Origin: a virus
Virus record (IMG/VR): IMGVR_UViG_3300024496_000012
Reading direction: 5' to 3' (one strand)
Length of the DNA stretch: 64,000 bases
The position numbers and the translations under genes are program-made. How positions within the stretch are numbered: the first letter of the stretch is position 1; every line of letters starts with the position of its first letter. Below are positions 34,285-34,750 of the stretch, one piece after another. The notes below the pieces were generated by a model. The model made no database searches. It was given only the letters and a program-made list of their open reading frames with translations, and had not been told where the DNA came from.

Positions 34285-34750
34285 CCCGCACCGGTGACTG
34301 TTATGGTGCCCGAAATCCGCTCTGATGTGTGGCGGTAAGGAAGCTCTACCTTGGTGAAGAGCGACTCAACCACTATCCTTAACAGGACGTTGATAGCAAA
34401 GACCTTGCTGTTTGGTTGTTTTTGAGAGCGAAATAAGGCAAAATGAGGGGAGAAAAACCCCACGTATACGTAAGTGATAGCAGATTTACGTATGCCGCCG
34501 TTGTATAAAGACGGAGCTCGAGGTACCGGACAACCGCCTCTGTAATGCTCTACTGCTGTGTGACTTGCCGAACTCGGATAAAGCTCAAACTTTTAGCCCG
34601 GAAACGGGCTAAGTGTGACCATTAGAATCTGGATAATGCTAAACTTTCCGCTTCGCGGAAAAAAGATTTTTAGATCATCTAGATAAAAATCTAAAAAAAG
34701 AAAAAATGCGCTGAGCGTAAGCGAAAGCGCAAACGAGCGTTAGCTCGTTT
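34285..34750 (+). ncRNA. Candidate large structured ncRNA (family not identified)
   Basis: More than 12 stems found by eye in about 470 non-coding nt, e.g. GTATACGTAAGT/ATTTACGTATGC (34464-75/34484-95, 12 bp including two G-U pairs), TTAGCCCG-GAAA-CGGGCTAA (34593-612) and AAACGAGC-GTTA-GCTCGTTT (34731-50). G-U pairs and GNRA loops favour the + strand. Confidence 0.7.
34558..34661 (+). repeat. Two tandem units GTGTGAC-N11-GGATAAWGCT(C)AAACTTT-[GC hairpin]
   Basis: Unit 1 34558-34612, unit 2 34613-34661. Both have an identical 11-nt spacing but different N11 sequences (TTGCCGAACTC, CATTAGAATCT). Confidence 0.8.

What the first reader, a model, noticed from the sequence alone, without database searches (positions are those of the whole stretch)
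34558..34661. Tandem repeat-spacer-hairpin units GTGTGAC-N11-GGATAA inside the putative RNA
Seen: unit 1 is GTGTGAC-TTGCCGAACTC-GGATAAAGCTCAAACTTT followed by TTAGCCCG-GAAA-CGGGCTAA. Unit 2 is GTGTGAC-CATTAGAATCT-GGATAATGCTAAACTTT followed by TTTCCGC-TTC-GCGGAAA (the TTT is shared). Flanks and the 11-nt spacing are conserved. The N11 and the hairpin sequences differ but the structure is kept; only GAA at N6-8 is shared. Inference: a fixed-length variable window between conserved boxes is the layout of bipartite guide RNAs (box C/D sRNAs, TIGR arrays), although the motifs here are not C/D boxes. It could equally be two binding sites for a protein dimer. Read on the minus strand the boxes are TTATCCGAG and TTATCCAGA; the latter matches the DnaA box TTATCCACA at 8 of 9 positions, so origin iterons are a real alternative.
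Basis: partly seen in the sequence, partly recalled or inferred. Interest (0 to 1): 0.72.

Follow-up and report, generated by a model that had tools for sequence, protein, structure and literature searches.

The report
Twin-box module of a phage RNA
The two repeat units are real and belong to a large, knotted non-coding RNA of uncultured T4-like lake phages; both carry the same 7-letter word, identical within each genome but different between genomes, so they look like two docking sites for one unidentified reader, not guide RNAs or replication-origin boxes.

Summary
Observation confirmed. GTGTGAC-N11-GGATAA occurs exactly twice in the window (34558-34581, 34613-34636), and each copy is followed by a hairpin.

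The units lie in a 495-nt gene-free gap that encodes a roughly 470-nt pseudoknotted RNA on the + strand. Its first third is the orphan Rfam motif Polynucleobacter-1 (RF01718). The part holding the units is uncatalogued.

More than 120 IMG/VR phage contigs keep the same layout: pseudoknot, unit 1, hairpin H1, unit 2, hairpin H2.

- **Spacer.** It is not hypervariable. Its last 4 nt are invariant, one 6-mer serves 41 of 122 genomes, the usual length is 10 rather than 11, and every parsed genome has a unit pair.
- **3' box.** It has nine variants, and both copies are identical in 119 of 120 distinct sequences. The only exception is this window. All 26 phylogenetically independent contrasts are concordant.
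- **Partner.** No other column within -800 to +300 nt covaries with the boxes, and no complementary partner was found in 16 large related genomes.

Best reading: two equivalent, exposed sites for one co-evolving trans-acting reader, still unidentified. C/D or TIGR guides, DnaA boxes or iterons, bypass or template-jump signals, and a dedicated guide for the adjacent GIY-YIG nuclease are not supported.

This scan had already found the same "twin-box" RNA in at least 8 other genomes.

The parts
34283..34421 (+). 5' domain of the RNA: Polynucleobacter-1 motif (RF01718)
   Evidence: cmscan 67.4 bits against a gathering score of 37, full model 1-141. The same hit lies at the same relative place in 15 related loci.
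34466..34493 (+). Hairpin whose loop (UAGCAG, 34478-34483) forms pseudoknot PK2
   Evidence: Stem pairs are 72-98% Watson-Crick or G-U with many pair types across 116 sequences.
34500..34550 (+). Pseudoknotted core: GUUGU 34500-04 pairs with ACAAC 34530-34 (PK1), GAGC 34514-17 with GCUC 34547-50, GAGG 34520-23 with CCUC 34537-40; contains the invariant AGGUACCGGA..ACCGCCU
   Evidence: the count of structure pairs on A2: helices 96-100% paired, with 2 to 4 doubly changed pairs in PK1 and GAGC/GCUC. These are the top MI pairs.
34553..34558 (+). 3' strand of pseudoknot PK2 (CUGCUG), directly abutting the 5' box of unit 1
   Evidence: Pairs 34478-83 with 34553-58: 92-100% paired, with GC/AU and CG/UA swaps.
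34558..34592 (+). Unit 1: 5' box GUGUGAC (34558-64), spacer (34565-71), invariant ACUC (34572-75), twin box GGAUAAA (34576-82), tail
   Evidence: This box differs from the unit 2 box only at its last letter, the single exception among 120 sequences.
34593..34612 (+). Hairpin H1 (UUAGCCCG-GAAA-CGGGCUAA) between the units
   Evidence: Perfect inverted repeat. 98.7% of cells paired, with compensatory UA/AU/CG at column 142-158; U-G pairs fix the strand as +.
34613..34644 (+). Unit 2: 5' box GUGUGAC (34613-19), spacer (34620-26), invariant AUCU (34627-30), twin box GGAUAAU (34631-37), tail
34645..34661 (+). Hairpin H2 (UUUCCGC-UUC-GCGGAAA) with the near-invariant GCUUCGC centre
   Evidence: The stem sequence changes while pairing is kept (CCGC/GCGG, ACGC/GCGU, UGC/GCA, GUGC/GCAC). 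The MAFFT alignment is poor here (66% paired).
34664..34697 (+). Variable hairpin (present in only some relatives)
   Evidence: Inverted repeats I2 and I3; variable or absent in alignment A1.
34708..34730 (+). Conserved hairpin GCGC-UGA-GC-GUAA-GC-GAAA-GCGC with an asymmetric internal loop and a GNRA loop
   Evidence: Outer stem covaries (GC/UA, CG/UA); inner GC pairs 98% paired. UGAGCG..AGCGAAA is invariant in A1.
34731..34753 (+). Terminator-like hairpin AAACGAGC-GUUA-GCUCGUUUU: likely 3' end of the RNA
   Evidence: Inverted repeat I7 followed by a U run. The scan lists a terminator-like site here with a different register, stem 34726-34741. Followed by the late-promoter-like GATAAATA at 34755-62 and the ATG at 34768.
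33838..34272 (+). Upstream neighbour: 144-aa GIY-YIG domain-only protein (SegE_GIY-YIG); linked in position but not shown to be part of the mechanism
   Evidence: Pfam PF19835, E 5.5e-36. It is the best match of 110 upstream ORFs among the related loci. Its residues do not track the boxes.

Best explanation
The two units are the "twin-box" module of a roughly 470-nt, doubly pseudoknotted non-coding RNA. This RNA is an extended form of the Polynucleobacter-1 RNA and appears to be transcribed with, or just behind, the upstream early or middle genes, ending at its own terminator (inferred from gene order and sequence; no expression data).

Each unit is a 32-35-nt linker with conserved sequence but no covariation-supported pairing. 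It is held between rigid helices in the order PK2, unit 1, H1, unit 2, H2.

Each linker displays the same 15-nt element: NNA-YYY-RSAURAD-R-Y.

Most likely the two elements are equivalent docking sites for one trans-acting reader whose specificity differs between phage or host lineages. The RNA would then act as a bivalent decoy, sponge or scaffold.

Shown here: the RNA structure, the conservation, the identity-type covariation of the boxes, and the absence of a partner in cis. Inferred: that the boxes are exposed, that a trans reader exists, and what the RNA does with it.
For: 1. RNA context.
- Rfam hit on the + strand for the 5' third.
- Flanking helices: 93% of cells paired against 83% in shuffles and 38-50% when the partner is slid; 233 doubly changed cells against 81.
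- PK2 is 92-100% paired with GC/AU swaps.

2. Identity.
- 119 of 120 distinct sequences carry the same 7-mer in both units, across 9 variants.
- Independent contrasts on a tree built without the unit columns: 10/10, 4/4, 7/7 and 5/5 concordant at the four variable positions.
- Within-genome identity is 1.00, 1.00, 1.00 and 0.99, against 0.53-0.71 between genomes.

3. No cis partner.
- Each variable box position has high mutual information only with its twin.
- None with the upstream 600 nt.
- No complementary 6- or 7-mer in the RNA or in the held loci.

4. Geometry.
- The 5'-box to 3'-box distance is fixed at 10 nt in 100 of 119, while box-to-box distance floats from 47 to 61 nt. This fits sites displayed on either side of a hairpin.
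- Thermodynamic folding leaves the boxes 30-60% unpaired.

5. Wobble hint.
- All fixed differences between the twins (CUC/UCU, G/A) are transitions.
- Over offsets -6 to +8 the copies are identical or transition-related in 85% or more of genomes. One wobble-tolerant complementary strand, or class-specific protein contacts, would allow this.
Against: - No reader was found. The neighbouring GIY-YIG protein does not covary with the boxes.
- Own-variant complements are not enriched in 16 large related genomes.
- No phage-encoded CsrA, Hfq or RT was detected. No RegA was detected either, but that control was silent.
So selection is for identity itself, which an intramolecular symmetric motif would also explain.
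- The closest pair of sequences with different variants is only 77% identical. The number of truly independent switches is therefore modest: 26 contrasts, or at least 8 by counting variant combinations.
Confidence: 0.5

Rival explanations
1. Intramolecular role. The two elements form a pseudo-two-fold symmetric tertiary motif in which equivalent positions face each other, for example symmetric homo-pairs in a parallel arrangement, or both strands docking on one symmetric core element. Identity is then required by the RNA's own fold and no trans reader exists.
For: - Strict identity with no mixed pairs, even for R/R positions.
- No partner found anywhere.
- The units are embedded in a compact pseudoknotted fold.
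- The fixed differences are Y/Y and R/R.
Against: - To my knowledge no natural RNA has a long parallel homo-paired stretch.
- Nine freely changing variants are unusual for a buried tertiary motif.
- It cannot be tested with the tools at hand, which include no RNA 3D prediction.
Confidence: 0.2
2. The RNA is the dedicated partner (guide, scaffold or inhibitor) of the GIY-YIG domain-only nuclease encoded directly upstream, and the twin boxes are where that protein or its DNA target binds.
For: - A homologue of the nuclease gene is the best match of 110 upstream ORFs among the related loci.
- The protein is a bare catalytic domain without a DNA-binding domain (PF19835 covers residues 3-123 of 144).
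Against: - No residue of the protein tracks the boxes. The best association (box position 5 with a C-terminal column) disappears in independent contrasts: about 1 of 6 pairs changes.
- Homologues of the protein occur without the RNA in phage Melnitz, and the family is widespread in cyanophages and enterobacterial phages.
- The module sits in a conserved gene order, so linkage may simply be synteny.
Confidence: 0.1
3. Bipartite guide RNAs (box C/D-like or TIGR-like): the spacer between the fixed boxes is a programmable guide.
For: Fixed-length spacing between two conserved boxes.
Against: - The spacer is not hypervariable and is identical in distant relatives.
- Every parsed genome has a unit pair.
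- The variable part is the box, not the spacer.
- There are no C/D boxes, no Rfam snoRNA-type hit and no Nop-domain neighbour.
Confidence: 0.03
4. DNA-level sites: DnaA boxes, origin iterons or operator repeats bound by a DNA-binding protein.
For: - TTATCCAGA on the minus strand matches TTATCCACA at 8 of 9 positions.
- Identical direct repeats are what iterons look like.
Against: - The boxes change between genomes at positions essential for DnaA, for example TCATCTAGA and TTATGCAGA.
- The unit 1 box matches only 6 of 9.
- Spacing of 47-61 nt shows no helical phasing.
- The surrounding helices show RNA-type compensatory changes and G-U pairs.
Confidence: 0.05
5. Matched take-off and landing signals: identical words that let a machine jump across the intervening roughly 50 nt. 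Examples are ribosomal bypassing as in T4 gene 60, or template jumping by a polymerase as in DRT2 ncRNAs.
For: - The box reads as GGA, AGA or GCA followed by UAA or UGA, with a hairpin in between and a 47-61-nt gap. From memory, this resembles the gene 60 layout.
- Such mechanisms require identity.
Against: - No open reading frame enters or leaves the boxes; GTG-TGA precedes each in frame, and a stop follows the second box.
- Concatenated repeat units have no conserved open frame, and their length modulo 3 is uniform.
- No reverse transcriptase was found in a 99%-complete relative.
Confidence: 0.04

Closest known systems
Polynucleobacter-1 RNA motif (Rfam RF01718; Weinberg et al. 2010, PMC2864571)
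   Same: The first 139 nt of this RNA (34283-34421) match the model at 67 bits. It also sits downstream of the same kind of small phage-like gene: the paper's supplement says most examples lie downstream of family GOS11034, with possible homology to a cyanophage gene.
   Different: The catalogued motif is 141 nt, of unknown function, and was not detected in any sequenced purified phage at the time. The units studied here lie 137 nt or more beyond its 3' end, in about 330 nt of conserved, pseudoknotted RNA that no Rfam family covers.
CsrB/RsmZ-type protein sponges (repeated GGA sites for the CsrA homodimer; from established knowledge)
   Same: Repeated short purine-rich sites flanking hairpins. 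CUGGAUGA resembles the CsrB repeat CAGGAUG. A homodimer binding two sites a hairpin apart is the same logic.
   Different: Only the GG variants have GGA; the AGA and GCA variants do not. There are only two sites, the sites co-vary between genomes, and no CsrA gene was found in 17 phage records.
TIGR arrays and box C/D guide RNAs
   Same: Conserved boxes at a fixed distance.
   Different: The spacer is not hypervariable, there is a unit pair rather than an array, there are no C/D boxes, and there is no Nop-domain protein.
T4 gene 60 bypass element and DRT2 template-jump ncRNA (identical short words flanking a skipped or reiterated segment; recalled from memory)
   Same: Identity-type, not complementary, covariation of two short words about 50 nt apart with a hairpin between them. 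The word reads as codon plus stop.
   Different: No coding context, no conserved open frame in the repeat, and no RT.

Membership tests
Polynucleobacter-1 RNA (RF01718) | Covariance-model score at or above the gathering score (37 bits) | tested here: met
   67.4 bits at 34283-34421 on the + strand. The units at 34558-34661 lie outside the model, so the RNA as a whole is an extended form.
Box C/D sRNA | C box RUGAUGA and D box CUGA able to form a kink-turn | tested here: not met
   The boxes are GUGUGAC and RSAURAD. No C/D-type Rfam match even at E up to 10.
Box C/D sRNA | Guide of 10-21 nt complementary to a target RNA, varying between paralogues | tested here: not met
   The spacer is shared across distant genomes (UGAACA in 41 of 122) and its last 4 nt are invariant.
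TIGR array | Array with many units and hypervariable dual spacers | tested here: not met
   All 120 parsed sequences contain one unit pair. The spacers are not hypervariable.
TIGR array | Adjacent Tas protein with a Nop domain | tested here: not met
   The neighbours are a GIY-YIG domain protein, a 2OG-Fe(II) oxygenase and proteins with no Pfam or PHROG family; no Nop domain.
DnaA box cluster / origin iterons | Conserved 9-mer TTATNCACA in several copies | tested here: not met
   8 of 9 and 6 of 9 in the window. Homologues carry variants that break the consensus.
DnaA box cluster / origin iterons | Repeats in helical phase on duplex DNA | tested here: not met
   Spacing is spread evenly over 47-61 nt.
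CsrA sponge RNA | GGA core in every site | tested here: not met
   GGA in 57 of 120 sequences; the rest have AGA or GCA.
CsrA sponge RNA | A cognate CsrA protein | tested here: inconclusive
   No CsrA in 17 phage records, with a valid control. The host is unknown, so a host CsrA cannot be excluded.
Translational bypass element (T4 gene 60 type) | Matched take-off and landing codons inside one reading frame that continues after landing | tested here: not met
   Matched triplets are present, but no ORF enters (an in-frame TGA lies 5 codons upstream) and a stop follows the second box.
DRT2-type template-jump ncRNA | Associated reverse transcriptase and a stop-free concatemer frame | tested here: not met
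   No RVT_1 in 5 records, including a 99%-complete one. An open concatemer frame occurs in only 40 of 122 (antisense) and 12 of 122 (sense).

The most novel reading that the evidence does not exclude
The twin 15-nt elements are read by base pairing. One lineage-specific nucleic-acid strand, most plausibly a host RNA, pairs with both copies, and the fixed C/U and G/A differences are absorbed by wobble. The RNA would then be a bivalent, re-targetable phage sponge or seed RNA whose specificity has been re-set at least eight times.
Probability: 0.15. Interest if true: 0.85.

Novelty: new variant of a known kind. Interest (0 to 1): 0.6.

Why it matters
Large structured RNAs of unknown function are rare, and several have turned out to be new machines.

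- **Size and distribution.** About two thirds of a roughly 470-nt, doubly pseudoknotted RNA is missing from RNA databases. It is shared by well over a hundred uncultured T4-like phages with genomes of up to about 350 kb.
- **The signal.** Two short words stay identical to each other while changing between genomes. This identity-type covariation is unusual for RNA. It is a clean, testable pointer to a trans-acting reader, or to an unprecedented symmetric RNA motif.
- **What follows.** It could also reveal a new way in which phages titrate or re-target a host or phage factor.

Tried and rejected
- **Known RNA families.** Rfam at E up to 10 over 34200-34800 gives nothing beyond RF01718.
- **Cultured phages.** blastn of the 495-nt gap against 50,697 phage records gives no match. 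Phage Melnitz, the closest cultured relative of the GIY-YIG protein, has only a 148-nt unrelated gap after its homologue.
- **Sigma-70 promoters in the units.** None were predicted. The -35-like to -10-like spacing would be about 10-11 nt.
- **Bacterial genomes.** The anchor pattern mostly gave chance hits in high-GC genomes. Real hits were on short contigs binned into Polynucleobacter and Bacteroidetes MAGs.
- **Cis partner.** Mutual information over -270 to +300 and -800 to -200, and complementary k-mers, gave nothing.
- **Pairing between the spacers of the two units.** Not supported.
- **Trans partner in phage genomes.** Own-variant complementary 11-mers and wobble-partner 10-mers occur at chance level in 16-17 large records.
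- **GIY-YIG protein as reader.** No residue tracks the boxes.
- **Candidate reader families.** RegA PF01818 was absent in 32 records, but the control was silent, so this is weak. CsrA and Hfq were absent with valid controls.
- **Template-jump, never-ending ORF and bypass readings.** No RT and no conserved open frame.
- **tRNA link.** No tRNA gene in the window or in the 84-kb contig.
- **Expression data.** Relatives cannot be drawn for a virus record.

Full report
**What is at the coordinates**

The window is part of an 84-kb fragment (23% complete by CheckV) of an uncultured T4-like phage with 40% G+C. The genes nearby are:
- SbcD- and SbcC-like gp47 and gp46 at 30211-32993.
- A 2OG-Fe(II) oxygenase.
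- A 76-aa ORF.
- A 144-aa GIY-YIG protein at 33838-34272.
- After the gap, proteins of unknown function and a baseplate hub gene.

The finding lies in the 495-nt gene-free gap 34273-34767. GTGTGAC-N11-GGATAA has two perfect matches in the 64 kb, 55 nt apart, and each is followed by a perfect hairpin.

**It is part of a large structured RNA**

Rfam places the Polynucleobacter-1 motif (RF01718) at 34283-34421 on the + strand, at 67 bits against a gathering score of 37. Nothing else in Rfam matches the gap, even at E = 10.

Two searches brought in relatives:
- The downstream 494-aa protein found 33 IMG/VR loci.

In these contigs the whole gap is conserved as one block. In order it holds:
1. The Polynucleobacter-1 domain.
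2. Two hairpins.
3. A pseudoknotted core.
4. Unit 1, hairpin H1, unit 2, hairpin H2.
5. A variable hairpin and an A-rich stretch.
6. A hairpin with an invariant UGAGCG-GNRA-AGCGAAA centre.
7. A terminator-like hairpin.
8. A T4-late-promoter-like ATAAATA just before the next gene.

Covariation supports the helices that frame the units:
- On 84 sequences, 93% of cells pair, against 83% in shuffles and 38-50% with slid partners.
- 233 cells are doubly changed, against 81 in shuffles.
- The loop UAGCAG (34478-83) pairs with CUGCUG (34553-58) at 92-100%, with GC/AU swaps. This confirms another first-stage note on this window.
- GUUGU (34500-04) pairs into the loop of the GAGG/CCUC hairpin.
- U-G pairs in H1 and PK2 fix the strand as +.

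The units are therefore two linkers of an RNA, each bounded by helices: PK2, unit 1, H1, unit 2, H2.

**The spacer is not a guide**

- Across 122 distinct sequences the last four spacer letters are invariant: ACUC in unit 1 and AUCU in unit 2.
- The remaining 6-7 letters take about 50 forms. UGAACA occurs in 41 genomes and is shared across different box variants.
- The window's own two spacers recur letter for letter in contigs whose neighbouring protein is only 53% identical.
- The distance from the 5' box to the 3' box in unit 2 is 10 nt in 100 of 119, so the window's 11 is the rare form.
- All 120 parsed sequences contain one unit pair.

**What varies is the 3' box, and it varies in concert**

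The 3' box is a 7-mer, R-S-A-U-R-A-D, with nine observed variants:

| Variant | Sequences |
|---|---|
| AGAUAAU | 27 |
| GGAUAAU | 26 |
| GCAUAAU | 22 |
| GGAUGAA | 15 |
| GGAUGAU | 14 |
| AGAUGAA | 8 |
| AGAUGAU | 4 |
| AGAUGAG | 2 |
| GGAUGAG | 1 |

- In 119 of 120 distinct sequences the two units carry the same variant. The single exception is this window, with GGAUAAA and GGAUAAU.
- On a tree built without the unit columns, phylogenetically independent contrasts are concordant 10/10, 4/4, 7/7 and 5/5 at the four variable positions.
- The nine combinations alone require at least eight concerted double changes (my inference from the variant table).
- Measured by offset from the box, the concerted element spans about 15 nt, from -6 to +8. 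Within it the two copies are identical or differ by a transition in 85% or more of genomes.
- The only fixed differences, CUC against UCU and G against A, are all transitions.

**No partner in cis or in the phage genomes examined**

- Each variable box position has high mutual information only with its twin (0.68-0.94 bits). No other column between -800 and +300 nt comes close.
- The RNA contains no conserved complement of its own box, and neither do the held loci.
- In 16 large related records, including a 99%-complete 345-kb genome, own-variant complementary 11-mers occur at chance level: 4-5 seen against about 4 expected.
- The same holds for 10-mers of a wobble-tolerant partner: 7-8 seen against about 5 expected.
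- Pairing between the spacers of the two units is not supported.
- Thermodynamic folding leaves the boxes 30-60% unpaired.

**The neighbouring nuclease**

- The 144-aa protein is a bare SegE-type GIY-YIG domain (PF19835). A homologue of it is the best match of 110 upstream ORFs among the related loci.
- Its residues do not follow the boxes. The best raw association vanishes in independent contrasts.
- The family is widespread in T4-like phages. Its closest cultured member, in phage Melnitz, has no such RNA behind the gene.
- So the linkage is real, but a dedicated nuclease-RNA partnership is not supported.

**Other readings tested**

- DnaA boxes or iterons. The boxes change at consensus positions between genomes. 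The spacing runs from 47 to 61 nt without helical phase. The region behaves as RNA.
- CsrA sponge. Only the GG variants have GGA, and no phage CsrA was found. No Hfq was found either.
- RegA. Not detected in 32 records, but the control was silent.
- Jump signals. The box reads as GGA, AGA or GCA plus UAA or UGA, with a hairpin and about 50 nt in between, which recalls T4 gene 60 bypassing and DRT2 template jumping (recalled from memory). However, no reading frame enters or leaves, the concatenated repeat has no conserved open frame, and there is no reverse transcriptase.

**Best explanation**

Two equivalent, exposed copies of one 15-nt element are held on either side of hairpin H1. Both are read by the same trans-acting factor, whose specificity differs between lineages.
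- A homodimeric or two-domain RNA-binding protein fits the identity.
- A single complementary strand with G-U tolerance fits the transition-only differences.
- An intramolecular pseudo-symmetric motif cannot be excluded, because selection appears to act on identity itself: no mixed R/R pairs occur.
- I put about 0.5 on a trans reader and 0.2 on the intramolecular motif. The remainder is spread over the nuclease-partner, DNA-site, jump-signal and guide readings.

**Relation to what is known, and to this scan**

- Literature. Only the first third of this RNA is catalogued. Weinberg et al. 2010 describe a 141-nt orphan motif, note that its 3' half is not always detected, and place it downstream of a phage-like gene family. 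I found no description of the twin-box part.
- This scan. My independent analysis agrees.

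Noticed in passing
window 34677-34687 (+): The variable hairpin after H2 contains a third box-like word, AUCU-AGAUAAA, inside the palindrome UCUAGA. Some relatives have CAUCUAGCUAAA at the same place. It may be chance.
   Followed up: partly
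window 3932-3945 (-): ATATGGATAATGCT matches unit 2 (ATCTGGATAATGCT) at 13 of 14 positions, in the sense strand of the 714-aa ORF 3536-5680. A rough chance estimate is about 0.02 before correcting for multiple looks. No homologous comparison was made.
   Followed up: no
window 34712-34726 (+): UGAGCG-GNRA-AGCGAAA is invariant across the family. It is a short GC helix capped by a GNRA loop and flanked by an asymmetric UGA/GAAA internal loop with possible tandem G-A pairs, so it may be a protein- or tertiary-contact motif.
   Followed up: partly
window 34755-34770 (+): The T4-late-promoter-like GATAAATA lies 5 nt before the ATG of the 494-aa gene, and AATAAATAA is conserved in relatives. The RNA is therefore probably not the leader of the downstream gene.
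   Followed up: partly
L004, L005, L006, L008 (about 1-1400): In these relatives an extra ORF lies between the RNA and the 494-aa gene. In other loci the next gene is the baseplate hub or another protein, so the downstream neighbour of the RNA is variable while the upstream one is fixed.
   Followed up: partly
window 33838-34272 (+): Homologues of this GIY-YIG domain protein are labelled 'NAD synthetase' in many deposited phage genomes and in PHROG 447. Pfam places it in SegE_GIY-YIG, so the label looks like a propagated misannotation.
   Followed up: partly
G007 (345 kb, 99% complete) and G005, reached through L050 and L037: Relatives of this phage reach about 345 kb, far above classical T4-like genomes. 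G005 and G007 appear to be the same phage with shifted coordinates.
   Followed up: no
L190, L240, L172, L176, L185, L223: Short contigs carrying this phage RNA are binned into Polynucleobacter and Bacteroidetes or Flavobacteriales MAGs. They are likely phage contigs mis-binned, or weak host hints. Only L190, L172, L176, L185 and L223 were inspected; L240 is inferred from the pattern hit and its record title.
   Followed up: no
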